Assembly: GCA_964464735.1 (NCBI GenBank)
Contig: CAYXKF010000004.1
Coordinates: 3,929 to 67,928, forward strand
Direction: 5' to 3'
DNA: 64,000 nt
From: an uncultured Candidatus Saccharibacteria bacterium
GTDB lineage: Bacteria; Patescibacteriota; Minisyncoccia; Phycocordibacterales; UBA1006
This document shows, one piece after another, positions 13,580 through 62,331 of the stretch. Positions within the stretch are counted from its first letter, which is position 1. Every line of letters starts with the position of its first letter. The notes under the pieces were generated by a model. That model was given only the letters and a program-made list of their open reading frames with translations, did no database searches and was not told the origin of the DNA. The translations under genes and the position numbers were made by a program.

Positions 13580-13825
13580 AAGTTGTGGTTTTCAGTTTTT
13601 AGAAGTTGGTTTTCATCAAAACTCTACCAAGAGAATCACATTTTGGCAAACAAAAAATCCCTTACGGGATATTTTGTGATTTGAGTATAAATTATCGTTT
13701 TGACCAACTATGGGTCGCTTCGCGACCTAAGAACCCACGGTTCTCAGCACTCGCAGACTCACTGCTCTCCTCCACGGGAAAACAAATGTTTTCCCGACCC
13801 CTTTCTTACCTCAGCGGTCAACCAT

Positions 13826-13850
13826 ATAAAAACTCCCCGAAGGGAGTTTT
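13826..13850 (-). terminator. Intrinsic terminator immediately downstream of the rpsI TAG stop
   Basis: The minus-strand RNA is AAAAACUCCCUUCGGGGAGUUUUUAUAU. It is bidirectional. Confidence 0.7.
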
Positions 13851-13852
13851 TA

Positions 13853-14254
13853 CTATCGTTTTGACCACTGAGGTGACTTGCGGGCCTTTAGCAAACCTGG
13901 CTTCTTTCGTTCCTTCTTTCGAGGGTCTCGCTTTAGGTAACCAAGCTTCTTAAGGGTCGGGCGAACTTCGGTATTTTTTTCAACCAACAAGCGGCTGATA
14001 CCATGGCGAATCGCTTCAGCCTGGGCTCGAACTCCACCGCCGTTTACTACGACAGTGATTTAAAATGTCGGAGCGTCCTCAAGCGCGGACAATGGGCTTT
14101 TGATGACATTTTGCAATACCGGAATGGTATATTCTTCAAGCGCCTTGCCGTTGACAGTAATTTTGGTCTTTGATGCAGCAACTGCGCGCACACGTGCAGA
14201 TGCAGTCTTACGGCGTCCGATAGTTTCAGTAAATTTTTGCTTTGCGTCTGACAT
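13853..14254 (-). CDS. rpsI: 30S ribosomal protein S9, full-length reading frame interrupted by one in-frame TAA (14060-14062) at a conserved Tyr position
   Basis: N-half ...[15 protein letters not shown]...[11 protein letters not shown]...EDAPTF, then TAA, then the same frame continues [25 protein letters not shown]...[21 protein letters not shown] to a TAG. Confidence 0.75.
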
Positions 14255-14256
14255 AA

Positions 14257-14598
14257 TTATTCGGTAATGACCAATTTGACTAATAGTTTTTTCTGGTGCT
14301 TGTTTTTTGGAAGCATGTTCTTGACGGTCTTTTTGATCACTTCGCCAATACCCTTGCGCTTAAGCAATGCGCCGCGCTTTTCAGCAATAAGGCCTCCTGG
14401 GTAACCCGAGTAACGCAGGTATTCCTTGTCCATCTTGTCACCATCGATGCGAACTTGCGCAGCGTTGATAACCGTAACCGAACCAGAATCAATAACATTC
14501 TTTTCAAAAGCAGGGTCGTTCTTGCCCATCAAGGCTACTGCGATTTCAGTCGCAAGGCGTCCAAGCTTTTTGTTTTTTGCATCAATGACGTAATCCAT
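14257..14598 (-). CDS. rplM: 50S ribosomal protein L13
   Basis: MDYVIDAKNKKLGRLATEIAVALMGK... L13 signature. Confidence 0.85.
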   Translation of the reverse strand: MDYVIDAKNKKLGRLATEIAVALMGKNDPAFEKNVIDSGSVTVINAAQVRIDGDKMDKEYLRYSGYPGGLIAEKRGALLKRKGIGEVIKKTVKNMLPKNKHQKKLLVKLVITE

Positions 14599-14600
14599 AA

Positions 14601-14957
14601 TTAATCAACAAATTCAATAATCGCGCGTTCTGCTCCGTCGCTTTTTCGTTCAGTCATCTTGATGATGCGGGTGTACCCACCGGCGCGTGACTTACTTTTT
14701 GCAGCACGTTCAAGAACTTCGTTCATGACCGAAGCTGCTCCGCTTCCAAGGACTGATTCGACATAGCGCTTGCCTGCAAGCGTGTTATCTTTTGCCTTGG
14801 TAATCAGCTTTTCAACGTATGGTCGAAGTACCTTTGCGCGGGTTTGCGTAGTCTGGATGCGGCCATGTTCAAATAGTGACACAGCTAAAGTGCGCACTAG
14901 TGCGGTGCGTCCCTTTCGTTCAAGACCTAATTTTTTTACTTTGCTGTGATGGCGCAT
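14601..14957 (-). CDS. rplQ: 50S ribosomal protein L17
   Basis: MRHHSKVKKLGLERKGRTALVRTLAVSLFEHGRIQTT L17 signature. Confidence 0.9.
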   Translation of the reverse strand: MRHHSKVKKLGLERKGRTALVRTLAVSLFEHGRIQTTQTRAKVLRPYVEKLITKAKDNTLAGKRYVESVLGSGAASVMNEVLERAAKSKSRAGGYTRIIKMTERKSDGAERAIIEFVD

Positions 14958-14969
14958 AATGGTGGTAAT

Positions 14970-15980
14970 CTACTCGCTTTTAAGTGTTATGTCAAATGCT
15001 TTTAGGGCATCCTTGATTTCGTTAATACCCTTTTGTCCAAGACCTTCAATCTCAAGCAAATCAGCTTCGGTTTTTCGAACCAAGCCGCCGATGGTGCGAA
15101 TATTTGCCTGATTAAGCACGTTTTGGATGCGGGTTGGAACTTGTAACTTGTCGATGCGGGTCTTTAGTGTGTCATTCATTGACTCTTGGTCAACTTCGTC
15201 TTCGGTGCCTACTGATGCAGTTTCTGCAATGCTTTCAAATGCTGCTTCATCGGCAACAACTGATTCGCGTGCAATGCCGATAGTCTTTGGTTCGATGTAT
15301 AAATCCAAGATAGCTGAGCACTGTTGGATCATAATAGATAGTGATCGTTCGACCGCCTCACGTGCAGTAAGTGATCCGTCAGTTTCAACACTGATGATTA
15401 ATTTGTTGTAATCGGTTCGGTCACCTACACGCATTTTTTCTACTTCGTAGCTTACCTTACGAATTGGGGTAAACGCTGCGTCAACCAAAATAGAGCCGAT
15501 GGCAACTTTTTCTTTGCCACGCATGTCCTTGGTCACAAAACCAATGCCGTTTTCGACGGTGATCTCGACTTGCAAGTCGTCCTTACCGGTTACTTCACAT
15601 AGGTATAATTCTGGGTTCATGACTTCAACCTGTCCGCTTGCTTCGATGTCGGCGGCAGTAACAACCTTAGGGCCTTTTACCTTAAGGGTAAGAATCTGAG
15701 GTTCTTCTGATGTAGATTGAAAACGCACCTTCTTAAGGTTTAAAATAAATGCAATGACGTCTTCGCGAACGCCATTCATCGTTGAAAATTCATGATCAAC
15801 ACCCTGGATGCGCAATGTTGTCATTGCCGAGCCTGGGATTGATGAAAGGATGATTCGGCGCAGCGAGTTACCCAACGTATGTCCGTAACCTGGGTACAGG
15901 CCCTCGATTTCGTAGGTGCCCTTTTTACCCTCTTCGTGAACCACTTTTAACTTTGATGGCAAAAGAATATCGTGTGTCAT
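14970..15980 (-). CDS. rpoA: DNA-directed RNA polymerase alpha subunit
   Basis: 336 aa; N-terminal dimerisation domain and alpha-CTD (IEGLGQKGINEIKDAL). Confidence 0.9.
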   Translation of the reverse strand: MTHDILLPSKLKVVHEEGKKGTYEIEGLYPGYGHTLGNSLRRIILSSIPGSAMTTLRIQGVDHEFSTMNGVREDVIAFILNLKKVRFQSTSEEPQILTLKVKGPKVVTAADIEASGQVEVMNPELYLCEVTGKDDLQVEITVENGIGFVTKDMRGKEKVAIGSILVDAAFTPIRKVSYEVEKMRVGDRTDYNKLIISVETDGSLTAREAVERSLSIMIQQCSAILDLYIEPKTIGIARESVVADEAAFESIAETASVGTEDEVDQESMNDTLKTRIDKLQVPTRIQNVLNQANIRTIGGLVRKTEADLLEIEGLGQKGINEIKDALKAFDITLKSE

Positions 15981-17891: not shown

Positions 17892-19163
17892 TCAATGAGC
17901 TGCTGTCTTTACGTGGATTTTAGCTTCATTTTTGGGGATCTTTGGCATCCAAAATGGACGAAGTTTGATAATTGCCCCTTCGATTGTCGGCTTTGCGGCA
18001 AAAATAGCCTTAAGGTCAGCAAAACGCTTACCGGCCAGCTGGGTTCCAAGCGTTTTGGTATCAATAACGGCGTACGCATCCAACGTGCCGTTTTGCACCA
18101 CCTGGATAGTTTGCGTTTGCGTTGGATCAGTTTGCGACTGGCTTTGCAGTGCAAGCGTTGCGGTCGAAGTATCAGATACAGTATATGTTGCGCGCACATC
18201 AGGAAGCGTGATACCTGCCGTTGCAACAACATCATGAACAAATTCGTCTTTTGAAACTACATATGCATACACTGCGCCGGTAAGCACTGCGTCGTGTGCC
18301 GTTTCAGAGTCGCTACGCTTCTCTACCTTTAAATCTGCAAATGAATATTGGATACTACCATCAACAAGCAGATAATCCTCGTTGATGTGGCGGCGGATCA
18401 ATTCGGAACCTTCGACGCGGATGCGTTCGACAAGCTTGTCGTGGATCATGGTTTTTTCGTCAGCCGACACCGTTGGCTGCATGCCCGAGCCGCCACCGGT
18501 TATGGGCGACTTTGACCGTGCATATTGGGTCTTAAACTTAGGACTTTTTGCTTCGCGCCAACCAGGGATCACAAAATCTGTCGGACTTTGGTTGTAATCA
18601 GCACCAGCTTCGGCAGCCTCGATCGTCACTTCAAGCGATCCGGGTTTTTCTTTGGTGCCGGCAGGAACAGTAAATGGTTGATCCTTTAAAATGTAATAAA
18701 TTTTTCCATTGGGCGCTTCTAAACGTGTGCGCTCTTTCAGCGATTGCGCCGGGCCTTCGTTAAAAAGTACGACGCTTCCGGTCGCCTTGGTTGAAACTTC
18801 TTGCATCGTAACGGCACTTACTTTTTCGGTCTTGGTTACCGGAAGCACCACCAAGTGAAAACCGGCCATACCAGCAGGTGCATCCTTGGTTAAGTTTTTG
18901 GTTCCTGAAATTGGCACGTTAACCCGATGCGGCGAGGCGCTGACATTTACGTGCCCTGTTACCGATGCAATGACAATTGCAATCACCAGGCTTGCGATCA
19001 AGATACCCAAAAGCACGTACCAGCGCTGGGTGCGCAGGTAGCTTACGTGCGAATTATTTACAAACACCCGAGGCTCTGATTTTGGCGCCGGCGATTCGGC
19101 ACGCGGTGCTGGGTTTGAAAATTTGCCTTCAAATGTATTATTTTTGCGGATACCGTCAATCAT
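17892..19163 (-). CDS. Hypothetical single-pass membrane-anchored protein (423 aa)
   Basis: One N-proximal TM helix (WYVLLGILIASLVIAIVIASV), then a large extracytoplasmic domain; no recognised motif. Confidence 0.5.
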   Translation of the reverse strand: MIDGIRKNNTFEGKFSNPAPRAESPAPKSEPRVFVNNSHVSYLRTQRWYVLLGILIASLVIAIVIASVTGHVNVSASPHRVNVPISGTKNLTKDAPAGMAGFHLVVLPVTKTEKVSAVTMQEVSTKATGSVVLFNEGPAQSLKERTRLEAPNGKIYYILKDQPFTVPAGTKEKPGSLEVTIEAAEAGADYNQSPTDFVIPGWREAKSPKFKTQYARSKSPITGGGSGMQPTVSADEKTMIHDKLVERIRVEGSELIRRHINEDYLLVDGSIQYSFADLKVEKRSDSETAHDAVLTGAVYAYVVSKDEFVHDVVATAGITLPDVRATYTVSDTSTATLALQSQSQTDPTQTQTIQVVQNGTLDAYAVIDTKTLGTQLAGKRFADLKAIFAAKPTIEGAIIKLRPFWMPKIPKNEAKIHVKTAAH

Positions 19164-20218
19164 AAGTGCATTATATGTGATCGTTTAATAATATGTGCTG
19201 CTTCGCGCAGTGCCTGGTACCGTTTTGTACCCGGATACAGCACTGACTGCATTGATTCAATAACTGTTGGTGAAATTTCAAAGTGTCCCGGGGCAACAAT
19301 CGAAAGGCGTTCAAGCGTATGGGCATCAAGTGTGCGTTCGAATTCGTGGCTATGACTAAGCATTGCTTCGCGAAGACCTTTTGCAAGCTGTTTAGTAAAA
19401 AGTGGTTCGTGGCGCCGCGCTATGCCAAGCTGATTGCCAAGCATCATCCATGTTCGTGCGGTCGGCGACAGAGCAGCATATGCATGATAAATACCAACAG
19501 GAAGCGAATGCATTTGGATGCGGTTTTTTTGCGCAACAACGATTGATGAAACCGTGTCGCCCACCACCATCAGCGCTTGCCCGTTATGCAAGGATGCAGA
19601 ATTAAAACCACGCAAGACCTGCAGTGTTGCCGATGATACCTGTAAAACCGTAATGTCGGCGCGTTCGCCGTGTTCGCGGATTGCACGGTACGTTTTTCGA
19701 GGACAAATGCTTGCACCATACAAAAATGAATATTCTTTTGCACGCACTTTTTGAGCAAGCGGAAGGTTTACATCATATCCGTTAACCTTAAGGCTATACA
19801 GTACCGCGTCGACAAACCCATGGTCATTTTTTTCGGCTGCAAAATCGCGATCAAGTTCGGCCCAGGCGCGTTTTTGCAAGTCCTTCATAACTGCACGGGT
19901 AAACGCATCAGCACCCAGCTGTTTTTCGGCGTTATATTCATGCGTTACATAGTGAAAAACTGTATGCGTAAAAGCATCAGCCAAAATGCAGGTAACTGTT
20001 GGCTTATGAGAAAACCGCCACGCGCGCTTAATAAACATCGTGGCTCGCTTAAACGAACTTACCAAGTGATGATGATATCGTTTTGGCGACAGTGCGTCGT
20101 CATAATCGGCACATGCAGCGATCACGATCGAATTTCCCCGCTCGTCGCGCGCATAAATTTCGAACGAATGAACGTCAAAAAAAATAACAAAGTCGCTGGT
20201 AAGCCGATCGTTGATCAT
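19160..20218 (-). CDS. Hypothetical protein (352 aa), possibly an actin-like ATPase-fold protein
   Basis: Codon-consistent long ORF overlapping the upstream gene by 4 nt. The fold assignment is a guess only. Confidence 0.4.
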   Translation of the reverse strand: MINDRLTSDFVIFFDVHSFEIYARDERGNSIVIAACADYDDALSPKRYHHHLVSSFKRATMFIKRAWRFSHKPTVTCILADAFTHTVFHYVTHEYNAEKQLGADAFTRAVMKDLQKRAWAELDRDFAAEKNDHGFVDAVLYSLKVNGYDVNLPLAQKVRAKEYSFLYGASICPRKTYRAIREHGERADITVLQVSSATLQVLRGFNSASLHNGQALMVVGDTVSSIVVAQKNRIQMHSLPVGIYHAYAALSPTARTWMMLGNQLGIARRHEPLFTKQLAKGLREAMLSHSHEFERTLDAHTLERLSIVAPGHFEISPTVIESMQSVLYPGTKRYQALREAAHIIKRSHIMHL

Positions 20219-24628: not shown

Positions 24629-25888
24629 CTACATTGGAAGGTTGGCTGGCGGTTCAGCCTTGCGTGACTGAATGCGCCCAACGCTTGGGCTTTGCAATAC
24701 GCGGCCCGGAAGGTGGAATATGGTCGCGATTTCGTCGGCAGTCATCACGTTTACAATATGGCGCTGCACCGGCGCAGTAAAAAAGCGATGGTAGATGTCA
24801 TACCACGAAAAGCTGTAAAAATGATCGTGATACATGCGCAATACATATTCTTCAAACTGGTACCGTCGTTGGCGGTCAGTTATGGTATCATTGACGTCTT
24901 GCCACGGGTTGTCAAAACCAGTCATCGCCACGCGCTTTAAGGTGTTTAAGTTCCAGCTATTAAAGCTTTCAAACAAGTGCTTGATGTTGCGGTGCTTGTT
25001 ACCGTCGTAGTTTGATTTTTTAGCAATGTAAATAACGCGGATACCCACCTTCCAAGCATGCTGTGAGATTTTACGCTCGATCTTTTCGATAATTTCCTGT
25101 TCACCCTTGGTGATGGTGCGGAATTTTTTCCATACATTTGTTGCTGTGTCATTACTTTGATGGCTTGGATCATCGCGATCAAGGATTTTGTTAATCGCCT
25201 TCTTGCCACCCTCACGCCAACTATCATCCTTTTCAGGCTGGATGATGATTTGGATCCAAAAGTATTCGTTTTTGCGCACCGTTGTGCCCATGGCTTCAAG
25301 CATGTTCACCAGCGGGTCAATTTGTTGATCAGGTTCAAGTGTTTCAAGTTTTTTATCGGTACCCAAATCGCGGTATGTCTTGATAGGCAAATGACTTGGC
25401 TGGGTCAAGCGAAAATCTCCCGAGTACATGCGGTAATCGCCTTCAGGATGAAACGGCGGGATCAGCTTGGTGTAATCTTCAGCTTCAACGACTTGCGCCT
25501 GTGGGTACTGGGCATAAATTTGTGAGGTAATAATGTCGCGGTGGTATGCCGGCGTACGGATATAAAAATGGATCTGGCCCTCAAGTGAAACAATTTCAAG
25601 AGAAAACCACGCCAAGATGCGGCCTTGGAAATATTTTTTGTAAAAGTTACCCACGCCACCTGTTTGCCACATCGAGTTCATCAAGATAAGTTCCATCGCT
25701 TCAGGCGAACGCCGAATTTCCTTAGGGACACGAATTTCAAGCAAGACCCACGGAACACTGGCCGCATGCAAATAACGCTTATAGTAAACACGCGTCCAAA
25801 ATGCCGAGTATGCCAAAAAAATCACGAACAGTGTCGCAATAATATCGCCCAACGAAGGAAGAAAAGAAAGAATCGGCGTAGAGTTCAT
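24629..25888 (-). CDS. Hypothetical N-terminally membrane-anchored protein (419 aa)
   Basis: N-terminal TM (IIATLFVIFLAYSAFW); no recognised motifs. Confidence 0.5.
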   Translation of the reverse strand: MNSTPILSFLPSLGDIIATLFVIFLAYSAFWTRVYYKRYLHAASVPWVLLEIRVPKEIRRSPEAMELILMNSMWQTGGVGNFYKKYFQGRILAWFSLEIVSLEGQIHFYIRTPAYHRDIITSQIYAQYPQAQVVEAEDYTKLIPPFHPEGDYRMYSGDFRLTQPSHLPIKTYRDLGTDKKLETLEPDQQIDPLVNMLEAMGTTVRKNEYFWIQIIIQPEKDDSWREGGKKAINKILDRDDPSHQSNDTATNVWKKFRTITKGEQEIIEKIERKISQHAWKVGIRVIYIAKKSNYDGNKHRNIKHLFESFNSWNLNTLKRVAMTGFDNPWQDVNDTITDRQRRYQFEEYVLRMYHDHFYSFSWYDIYHRFFTAPVQRHIVNVMTADEIATIFHLPGRVLQSPSVGRIQSRKAEPPANLPM

Positions 25889-26156: not shown

Positions 26157-27203
26157 TTACTTAGTCGTATATCGTCCGTCGTCAAGCTTTTTGAAATACT
26201 TTTGGTTCTGTAGATTTACCAAGATAGTGTTTTTCTTTAGATAGCGTTCTTTCAAAACTTTTTCAATGACTTCTTCTTTGGTAAGTGGGCCTTCGGCTTT
26301 AAGGATATCGGCAATGACTTCGCGTACCACACCTTTTTTATATCCCCATTCGCGAAGCGCATATACGCCGCGGCCAACCAATACAAAACGTTCATCCTTA
26401 ATCAATTCGTTATGGCAGGTTGCAGTATGCACCTTGCGGCCAAAAATCTTTTCGATGGCCTGCGCTACTTCACGAAAGTGCATCGGAGAGCCGTGCTTGC
26501 GCATAACAAGGTATGCATAATCTTTTACGCCGCGAGTTTTTACCGCTGATGAATCAGCATGTCCCCACTCACCTAATGGGTTCGGTGCGATCTTGTTTGA
26601 AAGGTCAAGCCATCGGCGAGCAATATCGCTATTTTTATGTTCATCCTTAATTTTACCTGCATGTTCGTGACCCAAGATTTTTTGCAATACTTCGCCTTCA
26701 GAAATCAGGTCGCCATGCTGAATTGAACTGTGAATATCCTTTAGGATTTTCTTTACTACGTCCGCCGTCTCGCTGTCGACAACCCAATGGGTCTTAAAAT
26801 GTTCGTCATCCTTAACCTTAGCAAATTGATCACCTAAGACCAGGTATAAATGCACATGATTTTGTGTCAGCCGGTCATTCGACATATGGTCAAGCAAATG
26901 TTTTTCCTCGACAACGCCGCCAAGACTGTGCATGATCTCGCCCATCTCGTCAAAAATCTGCTTTGCCTCATTGAATGAGCTTGACTTGCGAATCGCTTGC
27001 AATGCAAAGTTTTCAATTTGGCGTACACGCTCACGGGTTATCTTGTATTCTTGCCCGATTGAATCAAGCGTGCGTCGTTCGCCGTCGCCCTCAAGACCAA
27101 AGCGGTTTACCACAACATAGCGCGAACGGTCCTGGAGGTTACCAAGAAGTTTTTTTGTAAGCTGTTTGGGTTTAAAAGTAAGCGAAGCTTTTTTTGTAGA
27201 CAT
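26157..27203 (-). CDS. DNA-binding protein with a sigma-70 region-4-like HTH followed by a C-terminal HARE-HTH/winged-helix-like domain
   Basis: DSIGQEYKITRERVRQIENFALQAIRK (sigma r4-like); C-terminal GSPMHFREVAQAIEKIF...GVYALREWGYKKG resembles the RNAP delta N-domain/HARE-HTH. Confidence 0.45.
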   Translation of the reverse strand: MSTKKASLTFKPKQLTKKLLGNLQDRSRYVVVNRFGLEGDGERRTLDSIGQEYKITRERVRQIENFALQAIRKSSSFNEAKQIFDEMGEIMHSLGGVVEEKHLLDHMSNDRLTQNHVHLYLVLGDQFAKVKDDEHFKTHWVVDSETADVVKKILKDIHSSIQHGDLISEGEVLQKILGHEHAGKIKDEHKNSDIARRWLDLSNKIAPNPLGEWGHADSSAVKTRGVKDYAYLVMRKHGSPMHFREVAQAIEKIFGRKVHTATCHNELIKDERFVLVGRGVYALREWGYKKGVVREVIADILKAEGPLTKEEVIEKVLKERYLKKNTILVNLQNQKYFKKLDDGRYTTK

Positions 27204-27296
27204 AGTTATTGGCTTTGCAGGTAGCAATGAATAATGTGGTGTAATAAAGACCAAGTCATACTAGCATAACTGACTGTACTGTCAAGTACCCTTATT

Positions 27297-33232: not shown

Positions 33233-34951
33233 TTATAAAAACTCCTGCTGATAACATTCTTTGCAATAAATCACCGGCGCGCGGTCTTTTTCGTAATGGG
33301 TCCTAAACTGCTTGTTGCAATTATCGCAGGTGCGGTCTTTTAGTCGCATATTATTTACCCATATGCGAAGCTTTGCATCAATACGGCAAAACGGACACTG
33401 GCGCGGAATACAAATGTTTAACTTTCGAAGCAATTGAAGTTCAAGCGGAATAATTTTATATCCTTTTTTGCAATCACTGCATTCGATCGTTTCAGATAAA
33501 ATTGAATCGTCAATATGTGAAATATGATCAAGCACATCAGCAGCTTTTTTGGTAATTGAATATTCACGCTTGCTGTCATCATGTTTCCATCCGCCCATTG
33601 CCAAAACCTGGGCATCAGTCTTTGGATAAAACAAATTGGCAAACGTATGCTGATACGGAAACGGCGCGATCTGCGGCGGAAAAAACTCGCCGTACTTGTA
33701 TACATGCCCATTAGTATCACTGTACGGCATATCATCGATATGCTTGATAATTTTTTCGCGCAAAGCAGTGTATTCATCTTTTGTATACTGTTTGTTAAAA
33801 ATAACGTAATCGCCCTTTCGCGCCGAAACGCATCCAAACTGGTTGCTTCCAGTTATCGCAAGCTTGCAATACGCACTGTCGGTCAGATTGATACCGCTTT
33901 CTTGAACGAACTTCACGTTTGAAGCAAATTCGCCCGTTACCCCGCTTTCATACGCGTTTTCTAGCCCGTATCCAAAGTCGCAAATGTCATAGCAGTTCTT
34001 TTGCGGGGCACGGTACAAGCTAATACAATACTTGCAGTCTTCACAATACGCGCAGTCGTAGCATTCGTGACAGTTTTTTGATTCAAAAATATAACTGCCA
34101 GTGCAATTAACCGACATAGTATCCCACGCCGGACGCGGCACGACGCTTTTCCAAAAATCTTGTGCTTCAGTTTGCGCTTTTTGGTATCCGACATGCGAAC
34201 CTAAGTCATATTGTGCGCGTTTTTCAAGATACGCCTCTTTGGTCAGCTGTTCGTTTTTAAAGCAATAGCTTTTATTTTTTAAGTTCGCACACATAAAACA
34301 ATTGGTGCAGTTTTCACAATCGCGCAAAAAGGCACTGTCGATGCAAAAGCGATTATTGCCGCGGCTTCCTACCACGCGCGAGCTTTTGTACAGGTTCGAG
34401 CAGTCATAACACGCGTCACAGCTCATCACCATCGAACAATCAGAAACATCACGGCACTGCGTCACGTTAAACCCATATTCGCATTCTTGGTTGAAATCGG
34501 TATTGAATGTTAGATAACAATCTTTCAAATCGGCGGCGTGATTATTGTATGGCGAACCAGGAGTCGTCGTCGCATTAATTGAAAGGCCTAACAGTGGTGC
34601 TTGATGCATCAGTTCATCAAACTGTTCGAAAAATGGACGACTAAAATCGTAATCGCGGCCATAATCGCGCCAATCCCAATTGTCAGACCACCAGCATGTC
34701 GGGCAATACACTTTGTACTGCGAGCGTTTATCTTCGCCATTTGGCGGATACATCGAAATGAAGCGCTTACTGCACAAATCGCAGTCACGGTAAAACAAAT
34801 TTACCAAGTTGTACCAAGCGTAGCGGCGCATCCGTCGGCAGTCAGGGCAAAAAGTCGGCGGCGGAACCTGCATTTTTTCGTAAAATCCAAAGTCGTCATC
34901 CTCGATGACAAATGACTTTTTGCAGTTTTGGCAATTTCGCGTTTCGGTCAT
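33233..34951 (-). CDS. Cys-rich zinc-ribbon paralog G (array position 7); start MTETRNCQNCK, with its ATG overlapping the TGA of paralog F (ATGA)
   Basis: Family consensus at both termini (…FYEKMQVPPPTFCPDCRRMRR… / …VIYCKECYQQEFL); internal NKQYTKDEY module. Confidence 0.8.
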   Translation of the reverse strand: MTETRNCQNCKKSFVIEDDDFGFYEKMQVPPPTFCPDCRRMRRYAWYNLVNLFYRDCDLCSKRFISMYPPNGEDKRSQYKVYCPTCWWSDNWDWRDYGRDYDFSRPFFEQFDELMHQAPLLGLSINATTTPGSPYNNHAADLKDCYLTFNTDFNQECEYGFNVTQCRDVSDCSMVMSCDACYDCSNLYKSSRVVGSRGNNRFCIDSAFLRDCENCTNCFMCANLKNKSYCFKNEQLTKEAYLEKRAQYDLGSHVGYQKAQTEAQDFWKSVVPRPAWDTMSVNCTGSYIFESKNCHECYDCAYCEDCKYCISLYRAPQKNCYDICDFGYGLENAYESGVTGEFASNVKFVQESGINLTDSAYCKLAITGSNQFGCVSARKGDYVIFNKQYTKDEYTALREKIIKHIDDMPYSDTNGHVYKYGEFFPPQIAPFPYQHTFANLFYPKTDAQVLAMGGWKHDDSKREYSITKKAADVLDHISHIDDSILSETIECSDCKKGYKIIPLELQLLRKLNICIPRQCPFCRIDAKLRIWVNNMRLKDRTCDNCNKQFRTHYEKDRAPVIYCKECYQQEFL

Positions 34952-36648
34952 AAGTATTCTTGCTGATAACACTGCTTGCAGTAAATAACCGGCGCGCGGT
35001 CTTTGGTGTAAAACGTCTTAAATTCTTTGCCGCATTTATCACACGCACGATCAAGCTGCTGCATGTTTGAAACCCAAATATCGACTTTCTCCCAGATACG
35101 ACAAAACGGGCACGACCGAGGAAGCGGCAACGTATGCTGGCGCAAAAATTGCAACTCTTGCCCAATGACACGAAAACCGCGATTACAGGTACTGCAACCG
35201 ATCACCTCTTGCAAAATAGTGTCGGATGCATCTTTAATGTTGTCAGGCAAATATTTAGCTGCAACCGTAACAGCGTATTCGCGATTTTCGGGTTCGTACC
35301 ATTTTAGGCCCTTTACCTGCACCTGTTCTTTATTAAGTGGAAAAAAACGCGCGGCAAAGCTGTCGTTGTAAAAGTTCGGTGAGAATTCAGGTGGAAAGAA
35401 CTCGCCATATTTATAGACATGCCCTTCTGTACTAATATATGGATTAGCGTCCATGTCTTTCTTAATTTGTTCACGCAGCTTTTCGAATTCTTCTTTACTA
35501 TATTGTTTATTTAAAATCGAATAGTTGTTCTTTTTTAGGCTTACGCACCCAAAATGATGTTCGGCGGTAATTGAAAGCTTTGAATACTGTACATCCAACA
35601 ATCCATGACCTGATTCGTGGGTAAAATAAATATCCTGCGCGCCTTCACCGACCGTTATCGCTTCGTAAATACGATTCGAATTATTTCCCCAGTCGACATA
35701 ATCGTAGCTGTCTTTTACCGGGCCAAACTTGATAAGCATCAAATATTTAGAGTCTTCGGCATACGAAACTGCATAGCATTCTTTGCTATTTTTGCAGTAC
35801 GAAAAATAGCTCCCACTGCTTTTATCGTCTGAAAACAGGTCATAAACCGGCCGCGGTGAATATTTTTTAAAATGATCATAGGCTTTTTTCTTGTATTCTT
35901 GGTATTGGCTGTACGAACCCAAATCTATTTCGGACATCTTTTGCTTGTATTCTTCTTTTGAAAGCTGTTCGTTAAAAAATACATTCGAGGCATGCTGAAG
36001 GTTGATCGAGCCAAAACAATTATTGCAGTCATTGCAGTCGTAACAAAACGTCGTATCGATCGATTTGATCATGCCATGAGAACCGACGACATGAAAGTTA
36101 TCCGACGCCGATACGCAGTCGAAACATTTTTCAGAACCGCTTATAAACGAGCAGTTGAGTACATTTTTATTCTGCGCGCCGTAGAATCCGTATACATGCT
36201 CTTCGCAAAAGTCCGAATAAAACAGCAAATAACAATTTTTCGAATGCCCCACATGATTACAAAATTGCGAGAAATTGCTGGTCGGCTGATCAATCGAAAG
36301 GCCCAACAACGGCGCTTTATGCAAAAGTTCATTCCATTGCTCGAGGAACGGACGCATAGGATCATAATCCATCGCCAAGTCCTTCGCATCCCACTTATCA
36401 GACCACCAGCAGCGATCGCAATACACGACATACGGCGCATCTGGGTGATACATCGAGAACCGCTCTTCGTGACACAGATCACACTTTCGCTTGAAAAGCT
36501 GGATTCCCTTCATCCAAATAAGGCGGCGTTGCAAGCGGCACTGCGGGCAAAATGTCGGCGGAGGAACATTGATTTTTGCGTAAAAATCAAAATCCTCGTC
36601 TTCGATGACGAATGCATTTTTACAATTTTGGCAATTTCGAGTTTCCAT
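34948..36648 (-). CDS. Cys-rich zinc-ribbon paralog F (array position 6)
   Basis: METRNCQNCKNAFVIEDEDFDFYAKINVPPPTFCPQCRLQRR...; C-terminal VIYCKQCYQQEYL; a 2-nt gap follows the upstream paralog's stop. Confidence 0.8.
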   Translation of the reverse strand: METRNCQNCKNAFVIEDEDFDFYAKINVPPPTFCPQCRLQRRLIWMKGIQLFKRKCDLCHEERFSMYHPDAPYVVYCDRCWWSDKWDAKDLAMDYDPMRPFLEQWNELLHKAPLLGLSIDQPTSNFSQFCNHVGHSKNCYLLFYSDFCEEHVYGFYGAQNKNVLNCSFISGSEKCFDCVSASDNFHVVGSHGMIKSIDTTFCYDCNDCNNCFGSINLQHASNVFFNEQLSKEEYKQKMSEIDLGSYSQYQEYKKKAYDHFKKYSPRPVYDLFSDDKSSGSYFSYCKNSKECYAVSYAEDSKYLMLIKFGPVKDSYDYVDWGNNSNRIYEAITVGEGAQDIYFTHESGHGLLDVQYSKLSITAEHHFGCVSLKKNNYSILNKQYSKEEFEKLREQIKKDMDANPYISTEGHVYKYGEFFPPEFSPNFYNDSFAARFFPLNKEQVQVKGLKWYEPENREYAVTVAAKYLPDNIKDASDTILQEVIGCSTCNRGFRVIGQELQFLRQHTLPLPRSCPFCRIWEKVDIWVSNMQQLDRACDKCGKEFKTFYTKDRAPVIYCKQCYQQEYL

Positions 36649-36650
36649 AC

Positions 36651-38399
36651 TTATGCAACTTCTGTCTGATAACACTTCTCGCAGTATATTACTTCTGCGC
36701 GATCTGGCGCATAGGTTGTCTGAAATTCATTTTGGCAATTGCCCATATGACCGTGATTCTCAGCTTTGCACATGCACTGACGATGATAGAGTGCCGGAGG
36801 ATTTCTCCAACCCACACGATCAATATGCCGGCAGTTAAAACATAGACGCGGAAGCGGCAGCTGCGACTGACGGTAAAAATCAAGTTCTTGCTGGGTAATT
36901 TTAAAGGCGCTAGCACAATCAACATTGCAGCCATTTTTATGTCCGTCTAGTTCGTCGTGTTGGCACTGAATCACTTCGTTTATAATCGAATCAGGAACAT
37001 CTTTTATTGAATCAGGTAACTCACTTGCCTTTTTGGTGATCGGATATTTTCGCTCTTCAGGTGTTCGCCAGCGATACCCTTGCTTAGTCGCTTCTTCTTC
37101 GGTAATAGGAAAATATTCAAACGCCTGTGATTGGCTGTATCCGTAAGTAGACATATCAAAAGGGAAAAATTCGCCGAACCGGTAAACTCGCCCTTCTGCA
37201 TCTATATACGGCATATCATCCATATGTTTTTTTATTTTTGGAAGCAAATCAAAGTATTCCTCTTTGGTGTATTGCTTATTTAAAATACAATACGTTTTAT
37301 TGCGCACGCCAATGCACCCAAAAACATTACTGACGCTTTTGCAATTGATTGAATAATATCCGTCACTTATATTTGCGCACTCAAATGTAGCGATTGTTTT
37401 ATGCGCGCCGTTTCCGCAGCAAATCGTCTCGTACGAAAGTTCGGTGCCTTCGCTTGAGGTGATATCCATCCCGTCATTGTTCGGAGGATAGATAACACTT
37501 TGGCAGTATTTCATATTTCGGGCATTGCCTACAAAAAAGCACCGATCAATTTCGCTTGCGTTATTTAAATAGTCTCCAATGCAGCCAGGAGCTTGCACGC
37601 TGTGCTGATATTTAACGGGTGATTTTTCCCAAAAGGTTTCGGCTTTTTTTCGCGCTTCAACAATACCCGACCACGAATCAAGGTTCATTTCGGCAAGCTT
37701 TGCTTTATACGTTTCTTTATCACATGGCTGATTGAAAATATGATAGCTTTTATTTTTCAACCCGCTGCATCCAAAACAGCTGGTACACCCGACACAATCT
37801 TGGGACATCCACACCTCGACGCACGAAACGCAGTTGCGCGAAAAATACGTTTTGAAAGATTGCGTGGTGTTTATACAGTAATAACAGAGTTCAGAATCTT
37901 TTACATTTAATCCGTCAAAACATTTTTTGCTATATAAAAGCGTAACACTGTATGCGCTGTCTTCGTCATAACCCGAATCAAAACACAGATAACAATTTTT
38001 TGAATACCCACATACTGCATAGCTGCAATTCACCATTTCCATAGACCACATAATTCCCCATGGCACGACAGCATAGAAATCGCGAACTTGGTCGAAAAAT
38101 GGCCGTGAAAAATCGTAATCACGCCCGTAATCCATGGCATCCCACTTATCACTGTTCCAGTATTCATTACTATACACCGGCATTGGATTTTCAGGCGGCA
38201 TCAATGTAAATATTTTTTCACCAGTTGCAGCGCACGTGCGAGCATACAAATGGCGCATGTCGCGAAAACTCATACGACGGATCGCACGGCATTTCCAGCA
38301 AAATGTCGGCGGGGGTACCTTTATTTTTTCGTAGAATAAAAAGTCATCAGGCTCGATCGTAAATTGCAGTTTACAGTTTTGGCACGCTCGGGTTTCCAT
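36651..38399 (-). CDS. Cys-rich zinc-ribbon paralog E (array position 5)
   Basis: METRACQNCKLQFTIEPDDFLFYEKIKVPPPTFCWKCRAIRR...; C-terminal VIYCEKCYQTEVA. Confidence 0.8.
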   Translation of the reverse strand: METRACQNCKLQFTIEPDDFLFYEKIKVPPPTFCWKCRAIRRMSFRDMRHLYARTCAATGEKIFTLMPPENPMPVYSNEYWNSDKWDAMDYGRDYDFSRPFFDQVRDFYAVVPWGIMWSMEMVNCSYAVCGYSKNCYLCFDSGYDEDSAYSVTLLYSKKCFDGLNVKDSELCYYCINTTQSFKTYFSRNCVSCVEVWMSQDCVGCTSCFGCSGLKNKSYHIFNQPCDKETYKAKLAEMNLDSWSGIVEARKKAETFWEKSPVKYQHSVQAPGCIGDYLNNASEIDRCFFVGNARNMKYCQSVIYPPNNDGMDITSSEGTELSYETICCGNGAHKTIATFECANISDGYYSINCKSVSNVFGCIGVRNKTYCILNKQYTKEEYFDLLPKIKKHMDDMPYIDAEGRVYRFGEFFPFDMSTYGYSQSQAFEYFPITEEEATKQGYRWRTPEERKYPITKKASELPDSIKDVPDSIINEVIQCQHDELDGHKNGCNVDCASAFKITQQELDFYRQSQLPLPRLCFNCRHIDRVGWRNPPALYHRQCMCKAENHGHMGNCQNEFQTTYAPDRAEVIYCEKCYQTEVA

Positions 38400-38401
38400 A
38401 T

Positions 38402-40078
38402 CTATACCATTTCTTGTTGATAACATTTTTCACAATACACTTTTTCAAGCCGATCTGGCGCATACGCCGTATCAAATTCATTTGAGCAATTTCCAACATG
38501 TGCGTGATTTGTTTTATTACACATACATTTGCGATGATAAAGCAAGCGAGGCAGCCGCACTGCCATTCGTTCGTCGTGCCGACAAAAGAAACACTTTGTA
38601 GGCAATGCAAGCCTGAAGCGCTCATAAAAAGAAATTTCATGATTAATAAACCGGTAATTGCGCTTACATGCTTGGCAGGCAAAAATCTTGTCTTTTAAAA
38701 ATTCCCAATTGTATATTTGTGCAGGCAGTAATGAATCAAGCAAGCAATTTTCTTGCCCTTTAGTATCAGGAATATTATCCTCCCATCGATAGCCGAACGC
38801 CAGGGCCTGATCTTTGGTAAGCGGATAGTATTCACCAACGGTCGACTCGTTATATGCATAGGGGGAAATAGCAATTGGAAAGTATTCTCCCCATTCCCCA
38901 TTCTGCTTCATATGTTCGATTATTTTTGGAACCATTATTTCATATTCTTCTTTTGTATATTGCTTGTTTAAAATACAATAATCTTTTTTACGAAGCCCTA
39001 CACATCCAAAAAGGTTGTTCGAATTGAAACAAGCCTCTGAATATGTTGTATCTGTGCAGTCAATAGCTAAGTGGCAGAACTTCAGTCCATATGGTTGCGA
39101 GAAAAGGCACTCGTATGAGTTTTCAATATCAAGTGAAAAGCCGCAATCATAGCTGTTTATGAATTTGCGCACAGTAAATCCAAATTTGCTGTCTTCTCCT
39201 GATTTAACATCAAATGCCCAGTGGACATTTTTTGCGTGATAAACATGATTTCCGCTTGCAGCTACGTTGTGCGAACCAAACATGTGAGGCGTAGGAACTT
39301 CTTGCATCAACGCATCACGCTGACTCAAGATATGCTGAAGCACCTTCGGATCAGATAAAGGATACTCACTTAAGAATTTTTGGTACTCCTCCTTAGTAAC
39401 TTGCTTATTGAAAATATGATAACTTTTATTTCGAAGTCCAACACATCCGATGCAATTAACACATCCACGGCAATCAAACAAAGCGATCGAATCAGTGCAC
39501 GCCTCACATTCGCGGCAATACAGCAGTCGAGTAGACTCTAATACATCAATGCATTGGTAACAGTATTCAGACTTAAACAAATACAGGCAGTCGACCGATT
39601 CGCGACAATTCCATACTGAATGACTATAGTCACAATCTTCATTATCAACGCATCCAAATACGAAGTAACAGCGAGCGCTCCTGTTGCATAAATTGGAAAA
39701 TCCACAGTCGGTACTGTTGTTCACCATCAATGAGAAGCGGGGTACTTGGTCGTTTAATTCTTTATACTGTTCAAAAAAAGGGCGTGCGAAATCAAAATCG
39801 CGACCGTAACTCGTAGCATCCCAATCGTCTGCATACCATTCTTCGGTACTCCACACTGGAAAGGGCTGTCGTTCATGATACATCGAAATAATGGCCTTTC
39901 CCGATTTAGACGATGGCCGGCGATATAATGTCCTGAAATTTCTAACAAACAACCGACGAATCTGTCGGCATTTAGGACAATGGGTAGGAGCCGGCACTTG
40001 CATCTTTTCGTAAAACAAAAAGTCGTCCGGTGTTATTTGAAAATTTTGATTGCATTTTTTGCAGACCTTGATTTCCAT
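38402..40078 (-). CDS. Cys-rich zinc-ribbon paralog D (array position 4)
   Basis: MEIKVCKKCNQNFQITPDDFLFYEKMQVPAPTHCPKCRQIRR...; C-terminal KVYCEKCYQQEMV. Confidence 0.8.
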   Translation of the reverse strand: MEIKVCKKCNQNFQITPDDFLFYEKMQVPAPTHCPKCRQIRRLFVRNFRTLYRRPSSKSGKAIISMYHERQPFPVWSTEEWYADDWDATSYGRDFDFARPFFEQYKELNDQVPRFSLMVNNSTDCGFSNLCNRSARCYFVFGCVDNEDCDYSHSVWNCRESVDCLYLFKSEYCYQCIDVLESTRLLYCRECEACTDSIALFDCRGCVNCIGCVGLRNKSYHIFNKQVTKEEYQKFLSEYPLSDPKVLQHILSQRDALMQEVPTPHMFGSHNVAASGNHVYHAKNVHWAFDVKSGEDSKFGFTVRKFINSYDCGFSLDIENSYECLFSQPYGLKFCHLAIDCTDTTYSEACFNSNNLFGCVGLRKKDYCILNKQYTKEEYEIMVPKIIEHMKQNGEWGEYFPIAISPYAYNESTVGEYYPLTKDQALAFGYRWEDNIPDTKGQENCLLDSLLPAQIYNWEFLKDKIFACQACKRNYRFINHEISFYERFRLALPTKCFFCRHDERMAVRLPRLLYHRKCMCNKTNHAHVGNCSNEFDTAYAPDRLEKVYCEKCYQQEMV

Positions 40079-40080
40079 AA

Positions 40081-41811
40081 TTACATGACTTCTTTTTGAT
40101 AGCACTGTTCACAATAGACTTTTTCGAGCCGATCAGGTGCATAGGATGTTTCAAATTGATGTTGGCATACACCCTGATGATCATGATTTGGCAGATCGCA
40201 CATACATTTTCGGATCCACAGATGCATTGAGTTTCTCCACCCTACTCGCTCAAAATGCCGGCAGTTCGGACACAAAGTCGGCAAAGGCAGCTTCTTTTGT
40301 TTCAAAAATTGTAACTCGTCGGGGGTAATTTTAAACGCTGTGGTGCATTGATACCCGCATTCACCCTTATGCGCACATTCAATCACCTGACCAAAAATGT
40401 CTTCACTAACGGCATTAATATCATTCGGTATCTGATTGTTTAGCATTGTAATAGCATATGTTCGTTTTTCGCGCGGTTTCCACGGATACCCTTTCTCGCT
40501 TGCAATTGCTTCGGTAATCGGGAAATAATCCTGTACGACACTTTCGTTATACGTAAACGGGCAAAATTCATACGGAAAATATTCCCCGTATGCATACACG
40601 CGCCCTTTTGCATCCACATACGGCATATCGTTCATATGCTTGATCAGTTTCGGAACCAGTTCTTCGTATTCTTCTTTAGTATACTGCTTGTTTAAAATGC
40701 AATACTGCGCATTTTTTATGTTCGAGCACCCAAAACAATCCGAACAGTTGCGGCACAGCGCCGAATATTTCATGTTTTTTGAAGTCAGGCAGATAAAGCT
40801 TGCCAACGCGCCGTAACTTTGAATACTACATGCCACGCCTTCGTACTCAAGCTCACCGGTTAAAATACCATAACAATCGTAACAGTCTTTGCAGCTTAAT
40901 ATGCGGTTTCCGTTTGAAACATTTTCGCTGTTTTGCACATCAAACGAATTATGCACCATGCGCGAATTGTTGATAAAATCTCCGGTCGCATCCTGCGAGT
41001 TTACAATATTCGAATATTTCACCACCGAATTTTTGCACAATTCTTCAAATCGTTTTTTTGCCTTTTCAAGACCTTCTCGCGTATGAAGCTGCAGTTCATC
41101 AAACCGTTTTTTATATTCTTCTTTTGTCAGCTGCTGATTTTCAAAAATATACGACTGCTTTCGGATATTGGTACTTAAACAGCAGTTTTGGCAGTTTGCA
41201 CTGTTGGCAACAAAGTACGAATCAATGCAGCTTTGCGAACGAATCGCATAGTGACAGTTAAAATTACCCAGACAATCCACATTCCACGAACAATTATCCA
41301 ATTGCTGGGCACCAAGGCAGTCAAACGAATTTTTAGACTTATCAATATTTTCAGAATACTGAATATCTTCGCAGCCGATGACCGAAAACGCCAGGTATAC
41401 ATTTTTATTATCAAGCGTGTAGTTGCTGTAATCGCTGTTTACCAATGTTCCGCCGCGATACTGATAATTGCGCGGAGTCTTTTTAAACAAATCATTGAAT
41501 TGCTGCAAAAAAGGAACATTCCAATCAATGTCCATCGCATATGTCTTTGCATCCCATCCGTCGCCCATCCAGCATTCGTGGCAATATACTGGACAGAGAT
41601 CAGCGTCAGAATACATGCCGATGCTCATTTTTCCACATAGTCCGCACGGGCGCCGATACAACGACCGTACATTACGCCAAAGCATACGGCGAATACGCCT
41701 ACATTCAGGGCAGAATGTTGGATGCGGAACCTTTATTTTTTCAAGAAAAGAAACCTCATCATGAGTGACGATAAATGATTCTTTGCAATTTTGGCATTTT
41801 TTGGTTTCCAT
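40081..41811 (-). CDS. Cys-rich zinc-ribbon paralog C (array position 3)
   Basis: METKKCQNCKESFIVTHDEVSFLEKIKVPHPTFCPECRRIRR...; C-terminal KVYCEQCYQKEVM. Confidence 0.8.
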   Translation of the reverse strand: METKKCQNCKESFIVTHDEVSFLEKIKVPHPTFCPECRRIRRMLWRNVRSLYRRPCGLCGKMSIGMYSDADLCPVYCHECWMGDGWDAKTYAMDIDWNVPFLQQFNDLFKKTPRNYQYRGGTLVNSDYSNYTLDNKNVYLAFSVIGCEDIQYSENIDKSKNSFDCLGAQQLDNCSWNVDCLGNFNCHYAIRSQSCIDSYFVANSANCQNCCLSTNIRKQSYIFENQQLTKEEYKKRFDELQLHTREGLEKAKKRFEELCKNSVVKYSNIVNSQDATGDFINNSRMVHNSFDVQNSENVSNGNRILSCKDCYDCYGILTGELEYEGVACSIQSYGALASFICLTSKNMKYSALCRNCSDCFGCSNIKNAQYCILNKQYTKEEYEELVPKLIKHMNDMPYVDAKGRVYAYGEYFPYEFCPFTYNESVVQDYFPITEAIASEKGYPWKPREKRTYAITMLNNQIPNDINAVSEDIFGQVIECAHKGECGYQCTTAFKITPDELQFLKQKKLPLPTLCPNCRHFERVGWRNSMHLWIRKCMCDLPNHDHQGVCQHQFETSYAPDRLEKVYCEQCYQKEVM

Positions 41812-41813
41812 GG

Positions 41814-61212: not shown

Positions 61213-62160
61213 TTATATTGATTGATTTAATAATATTTTGATCCGCGCCTCGACAGGCGGATGGGTTGAAAATAAATTACGCAAACCGTTAGCCGCTTTG
61301 GATCCAAACGGGTTTGCAATAAATAAGTGTGCAGTCGCATTGCTTGCCTTATGCATTGGACGCGCATAGGCTGATATTTTTTTCAGCGCATTTGCCAATC
61401 CCTCGGGATAGCGGGTCAACAGAGCCCCTGATGCATCAGCTAAAAATTCACGCTTTCGAGAAACCGCCAGTTGAATAAGGGTTGCAAAAATCGGTGCCAA
61501 AATAGCCAGTACCAGACCGACTATCATTAATATACCACCCGCCTTGCTGTCATCGTCGCGATGACCCATACCAAACAATTGCGAACGTAAGAAAAAGTCG
61601 GCAACAATGGTTACAAAACCTGCTAGCACCACGGCAACCGTCGAAACTAAAATGTCTCGGTTTCCAATGTGCGACAATTCGTGCGCGATCACGCCTTCCA
61701 GTTCGTTTTTTTCTAGCACTTGCAAAAGGCCGGTCGTAACTGCCACTGCCGAATGCTTTGGATTACGCCCCGTTGCAAACGCGTTAGGCGCAACGTCATC
61801 AATAATGTAGACGCGCGGCTTAGGCAAGCCGGCAGTGATCGAAAGGTTTTCGACAATGCGGTGCAACTCGGCATATTGGCTTTCATTGGCAGGCTTTGCA
61901 CCCGAAACTGATAACGCAATAGTGTCCGACTTCCAATAAGCAAAAATATTCATTAAAACACTAAAGATAAAAAGCCCATACAAGATATTTGGGTTTCCGT
62001 AAATCCGTGAAAACAAAAACCCGATAGCAATAATGATGCCGCAAAATACTGCCATAAGCAGCCACGTTTTTGCAATATTTGAAGATTGATGAGTGTACAA
62101 TGTCGCCATACGCCCCGAGTATAACACAAAAACCGCGTGCTGCGGTTTTGTGTTTAACAA
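61213..62160 (-). CDS. htpX: M48-family zinc metalloprotease HtpX-like
   Basis: HELSHIGNRD (HExxH); two N-terminal TM helices. Confidence 0.85.
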   Translation of the reverse strand: MLNTKPQHAVFVLYSGRMATLYTHQSSNIAKTWLLMAVFCGIIIAIGFLFSRIYGNPNILYGLFIFSVLMNIFAYWKSDTIALSVSGAKPANESQYAELHRIVENLSITAGLPKPRVYIIDDVAPNAFATGRNPKHSAVAVTTGLLQVLEKNELEGVIAHELSHIGNRDILVSTVAVVLAGFVTIVADFFLRSQLFGMGHRDDDSKAGGILMIVGLVLAILAPIFATLIQLAVSRKREFLADASGALLTRYPEGLANALKKISAYARPMHKASNATAHLFIANPFGSKAANGLRNLFSTHPPVEARIKILLNQSI

Positions 62161-62168
62161 CTTAGTAT

Positions 62169-62330
62169 TTATCGAGGCACCGTACCGATAGTATCTTCTG
62201 GAACCGGATCCTCGTAGCTTTCGTTGGTCAATTCGGGCGATTTGACGGGGCTGTCTTTTTTGATTGCAACAATGCCGACAACTACAATCACGGCCAGTAT
62301 GATGATTATTATGATCCCGCGGGTAGTCAT
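62169..62330 (-). CDS. Small (53 aa) single-TM protein between lemA and htpX, absent from the ORF track
   Basis: MTTRGIIIIILAVIVVVGIVAIKKDSPVKSPELTNESYEDPVPEDTIGTVPR, read on the minus strand; it starts right after the lemA stop. Confidence 0.4.
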   Translation of the reverse strand: MTTRGIIIIIILAVIVVVGIVAIKKDSPVKSPELTNESYEDPVPEDTIGTVPR

Positions 62331-62331
62331 A

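What the first reader, a model, noticed from the sequence alone, without database searches (positions are those of the whole stretch)
13853..14254. Essential gene rpsI interrupted by an in-frame TAA at a conserved Tyr position, with both halves otherwise intact
The S9 frame reads ...EDAPTF, then TAA (14060-14062), then [25 protein letters not shown]...SPQWSKR, in the same frame and at canonical S9 length (~134 codons). In E. coli S9 the corresponding segment is LDLYITVKGGG, so the TAA sits exactly where a Tyr codon (TAY) is expected. TAA, TAG and TGA are all used as real stops elsewhere in the window. The options are a sequencing or assembly error, a recent nonsense mutation in a population variant, a split S9, or local read-through or suppression at this site.
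Basis: seen in the sequence. Interest (0 to 1): 0.7.

Follow-up and report, generated by a model that had tools for sequence, protein, structure and literature searches.

The report
One-off premature stop in rpsI
The ribosomal protein S9 gene of this uncultured Patescibacteria (CPR) bacterium really does carry one in-frame TAA, but the evidence points to a very recent nonsense variant or an assembly error, not to a new way of reading the genetic code.

Summary
rpsI lies on the minus strand (14254 to 13853) and has a single in-frame TAA at 14062-14060. Both halves are otherwise intact and together cover the whole S9 Pfam model.

The TAA does not sit at a conserved Tyr. It aligns with Asp in E. 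coli (LDLYITVKGGG), and the two closest orthologues have GAT there. The position varies across the clade.

TAA is the commonest genuine stop in the window (48 of 66 ORFs) and ends the two genes just upstream in the same operon. No other gene needs read-through. There is no suppressor tRNA in the window, no stimulatory RNA structure, and no start codon for a second half. That rules out genome-wide recoding and makes a programmed site or a split gene unlikely.

The half downstream of the stop is under strong purifying selection (dN/dS 0.025; 7 synonymous and 0 nonsynonymous changes in its own lineage). So the stop is either very young or not real.

The only independent assembly of this strain is a 1,118-nt Logan contig, 100% identical to the window. 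It ends exactly at the base before the TAA, which hints at read-level heterogeneity at that base.

Without reads I cannot separate a real nonsense allele from a consensus error. Interest is low.

The parts
14063..14254 (-). rpsI (uS9) codons 1-64, ATG to ...APTF
   Evidence: Translation. Matches Pfam PF00380 model positions 1-48. Identical to the partial gene at the end of Logan contig L001.
14060..14062 (-). In-frame TAA (codon 65); orthologues have GAT (Asp) here
   Evidence: DNA alignment with L002, L003, L004. One search gives the E. coli alignment, where the stop pairs with Asp.
13856..14059 (-). rpsI codons 66-133 in the same frame (ITVVVNGGG...SPQWSKR), with the conserved P-site tail
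   Evidence: Matches Pfam PF00380 model positions 54-121 of 121, E = 1e-25. dN/dS against L002 is 0.025, with 7 synonymous and 0 nonsynonymous changes in the window lineage.
13853..13855 (-). Normal rpsI stop codon, TAG
13827..13852 (-). Terminator-like hairpin directly after rpsI (11-bp stem; the same stem reads on both strands). A similar hairpin follows rpsI in L004.
   Evidence: (inverted repeat I2).
14257..14598 (-). rplM (L13), intact. It ends in TAA two bases before the rpsI ATG (TAATTATG junction).
   Evidence: (PF00572).

Best explanation
This is the ordinary, single-copy rpsI (uS9) gene of a Patescibacteria/CPR bacterium, in its usual operon position after rplM. It carries one very young premature stop codon. 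The stop sits at a variable, Asp-equivalent surface position, and the ancestral codon was GAT.

My preferred reading is that the TAA is a real nonsense allele. It would segregate in the sampled population beside a sense allele, most simply GAA, AAA or CAA, which differ from TAA at the first base. The assembler happened to write the nonsense allele into the contig. In cells that carry it, translation ends after 64 residues and no functional S9 is made from this copy. That is plausibly tolerated for a while, because uS9 can be deleted in E. coli. It is not a recoding signal.

Shown: the stop exists, it is unique in the window, it is absent from relatives, the downstream half is under purifying selection, and TAA works as a terminator. 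Inferred: that the allele is real and polymorphic rather than a consensus error.
For: - The TAA is present, and both halves form one collinear S9.
- Orthologues L002, L003 and L004 have GAT at this codon, so the stop is lineage-specific.
- The half downstream of the stop has dN/dS 0.025 against L002. It has 7 synonymous and 0 nonsynonymous changes on the window's own branch. By my own estimate, if that half were evolving neutrally, 0 of 7 would have a probability of about 0.25^7 = 6e-5. So the stop is younger than nearly all of that branch.
- Logan contig L001 was assembled independently from SRR11567520 and was found through L13, not through S9. It is 100% identical to window 14063-15180 and ends exactly at the base before the first base of the TAA. 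By my own estimate, a random contig end would land there about 0.1-0.2% of the time. A de Bruijn contig ending just before a variant base is what low coverage plus two alleles would produce.
- The rest of the window looks well assembled. All other operon genes match their orthologues in length, or within 1-2 residues (S4, RpoA), and the large genes have full Pfam coverage.
- uS9 is listed as nonessential in E. coli deletion studies (PMC7096426, Table 1). Salmonella rpsI alleles that truncate the C-terminus by 20 or 33 residues are viable (PMC3617221).
Against: - No reads were available, so the allele was never seen directly.
- L001 stops before the codon, so it neither confirms nor contradicts the TAA. 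Its end could be a coverage drop-out that coincides by chance.
- A nonsense allele in a universally conserved ribosomal protein should be strongly selected against. It would rarely become the assembled majority path.
- TAA is two substitutions from the ancestral GAT, so an unobserved intermediate codon has to be assumed.
- No other public assembly of this species covers the locus.
Confidence: 0.45

Rival explanations
1. The stop is an assembly, consensus or sequencing artefact, and the organism has a sense codon here. Two routes are plausible. One is a miscall at the junction of two adjacent homopolymers, for example a true TTTAAAATC or TTTGAAATC written as TTTTAAATC. The other is a per-position consensus of two co-occurring strain alleles that produced a codon present in neither.
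For: - The downstream half is perfectly conserved and shows no second lesion.
- This is a highly expressed, universally conserved gene, where real nonsense alleles should be rare.
- The codon lies between a T-run and an A-run (CATTTTAAATC).
- The site appears heterogeneous or problematic in an independent assembly as well.
Against: - The other 60+ ORFs in 64 kb show no frameshift or premature stop, so the consensus error rate is low.
- L001 agrees with the window at all 1,118 shared bases.
- k-mer assemblers do not normally create codons that are absent from the reads.
- The sequencing platform is unknown.
Confidence: 0.35
2. The TAA is fixed and real, and uS9 has recently been lost in this lineage. 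The bacterium would be a natural uS9-null organism with a reduced CPR ribosome.
For: - uS9 can be deleted in E. coli (PMC7096426, Table 1).
- From general knowledge of the field, CPR bacteria are reported to lack some ribosomal proteins.
- No second S9 copy is present in the window.
Against: - There has been strong purifying selection on both halves up to the present, and there is no second lesion.
- All relatives retain a full-length S9.
- The break in L001 suggests the site is not uniform.
- Only 64 kb of the genome was seen.
Confidence: 0.1
3. The gene is rescued functionally. Either the UAA is read through at this site (by a suppressor tRNA or a near-cognate tRNA), or the two halves are made separately and assemble on the 30S subunit as a split S9.
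For: - The frame and length are preserved, and the downstream half is under selection.
- Genes in this operon are joined stop-to-start (TAATTATG) and lack Shine-Dalgarno motifs, so reinitiation after termination may be common here.
Against: - TAA ends 48 of 66 ORFs, including rplQ and rplM on the same mRNA.
- The TAA-A context occurs at 10 genuine stops.
- Orthologues do not have the stop.
- There is no tRNA with a UUA anticodon in the window.
- The local RNA fold is not significant, z = -1.24.
- The first ATG, GTG or TTG after the stop is TTG at 13990, which leaves only 45 residues.
- A paper on bacterial stop-codon reassignment lists only UGA recoding (PMC13462651, abstract).
Confidence: 0.07

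Closest known systems
Canonical bacterial uS9 (rpsI) in the rplM-rpsI operon
   Same: - Full-length collinear match to Pfam PF00380.
- 89% identity to the S9 of MAG GCA_964482675.1.
- Same operon order as the relatives: rpsM-rpsK-rpsD-rpoA-rplQ-rplM-rpsI.
- Conserved GGG motif and C-terminal ...PQWSKR tail.
   Different: Codon 65 is TAA instead of GAT (Asp). There is also a one-codon deletion relative to the closest orthologue, at EEYT-IPV.
Young nonsense alleles and pseudogenes, or consensus errors, in metagenome-assembled genomes
   Same: There is a single lesion in an otherwise intact gene under purifying selection. It is absent from relatives and unique within the window.
   Different: It hits a universally conserved ribosomal protein gene, where such alleles are expected to be rare. 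Which of the two causes applies cannot be told without reads.
Genome-wide stop-codon reassignment in bacteria (UGA to Trp or Gly)
   Same: Only the superficial feature of an in-frame stop inside a conserved gene.
   Different: The codon here is UAA, which is this organism's main terminator, and only one gene is affected. The reassignment paper I found covers UGA only (PMC13462651, abstract).
Viable C-terminal truncations of S9 in Salmonella (rpsI2, rpsI3)
   Same: These are premature ends in rpsI that the cell survives (PMC3617221).
   Different: Those alleles remove 20 or 33 residues. This one would remove 69 of 133, including most of the globular fold. The Salmonella alleles were selected in the laboratory as +1 frameshift suppressors.

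Membership tests
uS9 / Ribosomal_S9 (PF00380) | Sequence match across the whole family model | tested here: met
   The N-terminal half matches model positions 1-48 (E = 7e-8). The C-terminal half matches 54-121 of 121 (E = 1e-25). There are 3,732 homologues, the best at 89% identity.
uS9 / Ribosomal_S9 (PF00380) | Operon position directly after rplM, and the conserved C-terminal SKR tail | tested here: met
uS9 / Ribosomal_S9 (PF00380) | Uninterrupted reading frame | tested here: not met
   TAA at codon 65.
Genome-wide stop-codon reassignment | The codon occurs in-frame at conserved positions of many genes | tested here: not met
   Only rpsI is affected. The one other same-frame ORF pair (LemA and HtpX) is two separate genes. 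Large genes have full-length Pfam coverage.
Genome-wide stop-codon reassignment | The codon is no longer used as a terminator | tested here: not met
   TAA ends 48 of 66 ORFs.
Genome-wide stop-codon reassignment | A cognate tRNA (anticodon UUA) and a change in release factors | not testable with these tools
   The window holds only tRNA-Ser(CGA) and tRNA-Ser(GGA). The rest of the genome is not available.
Programmed read-through site | The stop codon is conserved in orthologues | tested here: not met
   L002, L003 and L004 have GAT. All 29 aligned relatives have a sense residue.
Programmed read-through site | A special stop context or a downstream stimulatory structure | tested here: not met
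   TAA-A occurs at 10 genuine stops. The fold z-score is -1.24.
Programmed frameshift (prfB-like) | The downstream coding part lies in a different frame | tested here: not met
   Both halves are in the same frame. The +1 frame from TTTT hits TAG after four codons, read directly from the sequence.
Split gene | The second half has its own start codon, and the split is shared by relatives | tested here: not met
   The first ATG, GTG or TTG is at 13990, 24 codons after the stop. Relatives are unsplit.
Old pseudogene | Relaxed selection or further lesions | tested here: not met
   dN/dS downstream of the stop is 0.025. The window's own branch has 7 synonymous and 0 nonsynonymous changes there.

The most novel reading that the evidence does not exclude
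The TAA is fixed in this CPR bacterium and S9 is still made. That would happen either by efficient site-specific decoding of UAA or as two separately translated fragments. The less exotic version is that the organism is a natural uS9-null bacterium. Either would be a first for a universally conserved ribosomal protein in a free-standing bacterial genome.
Probability: 0.08. Interest if true: 0.8.

Novelty: already known. Interest (0 to 1): 0.15.

Why it matters
If the stop is a nonsense variant or an error, which is by far the likeliest case, it matters only as a quality flag. An annotation pipeline will call S9 missing or truncated in this genome. That can depress marker-gene completeness estimates and could feed false claims of ribosomal protein loss in CPR bacteria.

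It would become interesting only if reads and proteomics showed a fixed TAA together with a full-length S9. That would be the first case of UAA being decoded as sense in a bacterium.

Tried and rejected
**Searches for an independent copy of the locus**
- An exact-DNA scan with NNN at the codon found nothing in genome contigs or metagenome contigs.
- A degenerate back-translated pattern (F[10 protein letters not shown][V/I]RAQAEA) found nothing in metagenome contigs. In genome contigs it found only the 89%-identity relative.
- Exact-protein look-ups of the C-terminal half (68 aa), the 45-aa TTG ORF, S4 and the downstream membrane protein were all 'not on record'.
- A second homologue search with the C-terminal 79 residues found nothing closer than 91% identity. 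No public assembly therefore shows this strain's codon 65.

**Other readings tested and rejected**
- Genome-wide recoding: rejected on stop-codon usage.
- A second TAA-interrupted gene at 61213-62883: rejected, because these are separate LemA and HtpX genes.
- +1 frameshift on TTTT: rejected, because the wrong frame follows.
- Read-through structure: the fold is not significant.
- A second rpsI in the window: none found.

**Dead end**
- A literature search for run SRR11567520 returned no papers.

Full report
**Observation**

The finding's coordinates are right, but the gene is on the minus strand. Reading 14254 to 13853 gives [132 protein letters not shown]. The internal TAA is at 14062-14060 and the normal stop is TAG at 13855-13853.

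The two halves match the Pfam S9 model at positions 1-48 and 54-121 of 121. They are therefore one collinear S9 with a single bad codon.

The gene is the last in a standard minus-strand block, rpsM-rpsK-rpsD-rpoA-rplQ-rplM-rpsI. A terminator-like hairpin follows it at 13827-13852. All the other genes in the block are intact and match their orthologues in related contigs in length, or within 1-2 residues for S4 and RpoA.

**Organism**

The best S9 homologues belong to Patescibacteria (CPR). The closest, at 89% identity, is from MAG GCA_964482675.1, contig CAYZZD010000020.1, which is titled 'uncultured Candidatus Saccharibacteria bacterium'. The next is at 70% identity, and named hits at about 57-64% are Paceibacteria-type groups.

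**Which residue is replaced**

That register is off by two residues.
- BLASTP pairs window [12 protein letters not shown] with E. coli KLDLYITVKGGG, so the stop pairs with Asp.
- Four solved bacterial S9 chains also have Asp there.
- The DNA alignment shows GAT in L002, L003 and L004 where the window has TAA. The ancestral codon is therefore GAT, and TAA is two substitutions away, at positions 1 and 3.
- Among 29 relatives the residue varies (D, V, A, T, M, S, N, Y, K, H), so the position is weakly constrained in this clade.

**Is TAA recoded?**

No.
- Of 66 non-overlapping ORFs of at least 60 codons, 48 end in TAA, 9 in TAG and 9 in TGA.
- rplQ and rplM, on the same operon, end in TAA two bases before the next ATG. 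A general UAA suppressor would extend them.
- The TAA-A context of the internal stop also occurs at 10 genuine stops.
- The one other place where two long ORFs are joined in frame by a single TAA (62883-61213) is a LemA gene followed by a separate HtpX-like gene, with non-coding-looking sequence between them.
- Large genes show full-length Pfam coverage: DnaK, AlaRS, SecA, MnmA, GDH and PBP2.
- The window's only tRNAs are Ser(CGA) and Ser(GGA).
- The RNA around the stop folds no better than shuffled sequence, z = -1.24.

**Frameshift or split gene?**

Both halves are in the same frame, so a frameshift cannot help. Slipping +1 on TTTT leads to a TAG four codons later (read directly).

After the TAA there is no ATG, GTG or TTG until TTG at 13990, which would leave only a 45-residue tail fragment. 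The organism has almost no Shine-Dalgarno motifs (1 of 56 genes), so initiation depends on the start codon itself. Reinitiation on the ATC that follows the TAA is conceivable but would be inefficient; that is an inference from general knowledge. No relative is split.

**Age of the stop**

Against L002, the half downstream of the stop has 25 synonymous and 3 nonsynonymous differences (dN/dS 0.025). The upstream half has dN/dS 0.198.

I polarised the changes with L004 as outgroup. The window's own branch then has 7 synonymous and 0 nonsynonymous changes downstream of the stop. Non-synonymous sites outnumber synonymous ones about three to one. By my own calculation, neutral evolution would give 0 of 7 with a probability of about 6e-5.

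The downstream half has therefore been a working coding sequence for almost the whole branch. The stop is very young, is not real, or is read through. The previous two sections argue against read-through.

**Independent data**

The exact L13 protein is on record on only one other contig, Logan SRR11567520_156470 (L001, 1,118 nt). It is 100% identical to window 14063-15180 and ends exactly at the base before the first base of the TAA.

L001 was found through L13, so the place where it ends was not a selection criterion. By my estimate a random contig end would fall there roughly once in a thousand. In a k-mer assembly at low coverage, a contig that stops just before a base is what two alleles at that base would produce. 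That favours variation at 14062, the first codon position, meaning TAA against GAA, AAA or CAA, or GAT if position 3 also varies.

This is suggestive, not proof. Neighbouring genes of this strain are absent from that run's assembly, so coverage there is low.

No other public assembly covers the locus:
- DNA pattern scans found nothing from this species.
- Exact-protein look-ups failed.
- A homologue search with the C-terminal 79 residues found nothing above 91% identity.

**Could a real nonsense allele survive?**

uS9 is universally conserved. Even so, it is listed among the E. coli ribosomal proteins that genomic deletion studies found nonessential, and 30S subunits assembled without it still translate (PMC7096426, Table 1 and results). 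Salmonella rpsI alleles lacking the last 20 or 33 residues are viable and cause +1 frameshifting (PMC3617221). A nonsense allele could therefore persist for a while, especially in a small population, but it should be costly.

**Verdict**

This is a one-off premature stop in an otherwise normal rpsI. My estimates are:
- about 0.45 for a real, young nonsense allele segregating in the population;
- about 0.35 for an assembly or consensus error;
- about 0.10 for a fixed recent loss of uS9;
- about 0.07 for functional rescue by read-through or a split gene.

Only read pileups and proteomics can decide between these. A paper on bacterial stop-codon reassignment lists UGA recoding only (PMC13462651, abstract), so a decoded UAA would be new. 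Nothing here calls for it.

Noticed in passing
window 33233-45247 (minus strand): There are seven tandem paralogues of 563-591 aa, 30-48% identical to one another. The members tested have no Pfam hit (2 tested) and no NCBIfam hit (2 tested). Each begins with a Cys-rich, zinc-ribbon-like N-terminus: METRxCQNCKxxFxIxxDDFxFYEKIxVPPPTFCPxCRxxRR. For four of them the likely true start is an ATGGAAA two bases after the previous gene's stop. A PBP2/FtsI-type transpeptidase gene (45276-47009) lies directly upstream.
   Followed up: partly
window 13683-13706 and 13844-13867: A 24-nt direct repeat (83% identity, 161 nt apart) duplicates the last codons of rpsI plus part of its terminator. Each copy is followed by its own terminator-like hairpin, at 13827-13852 and 13657-13670. 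It looks like the scar of a small duplication or insertion just downstream of rpsI.
   Followed up: partly
whole window, gene starts: Almost no gene has a Shine-Dalgarno-like motif upstream (1 of 56). Many genes are joined stop-to-start, for example TAATTATG at rplQ-rplM and rplM-rpsI. This suggests SD-independent, coupled initiation in this organism.
   Followed up: partly
window 13580-13852 compared with L002 3808-5679: The closest relative has a 623-aa Kelch-repeat gene between rpsI and the next membrane-protein gene. The window has only about 270 nt of non-coding sequence there.
   Followed up: no
window 17892-20218 and 24629-25888 (minus strand): Three sizeable ORFs (423, 352 and 419 aa) lie between translation genes. 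None has a match reaching the curated cut-off in Pfam (only sub-threshold hits for two) or any NCBIfam match.
   Followed up: no
window 26157-27254 (minus strand): A 365-aa protein combines a sigma-70 region 4 domain with a HARE-HTH domain, which is an unusual architecture.
   Followed up: no
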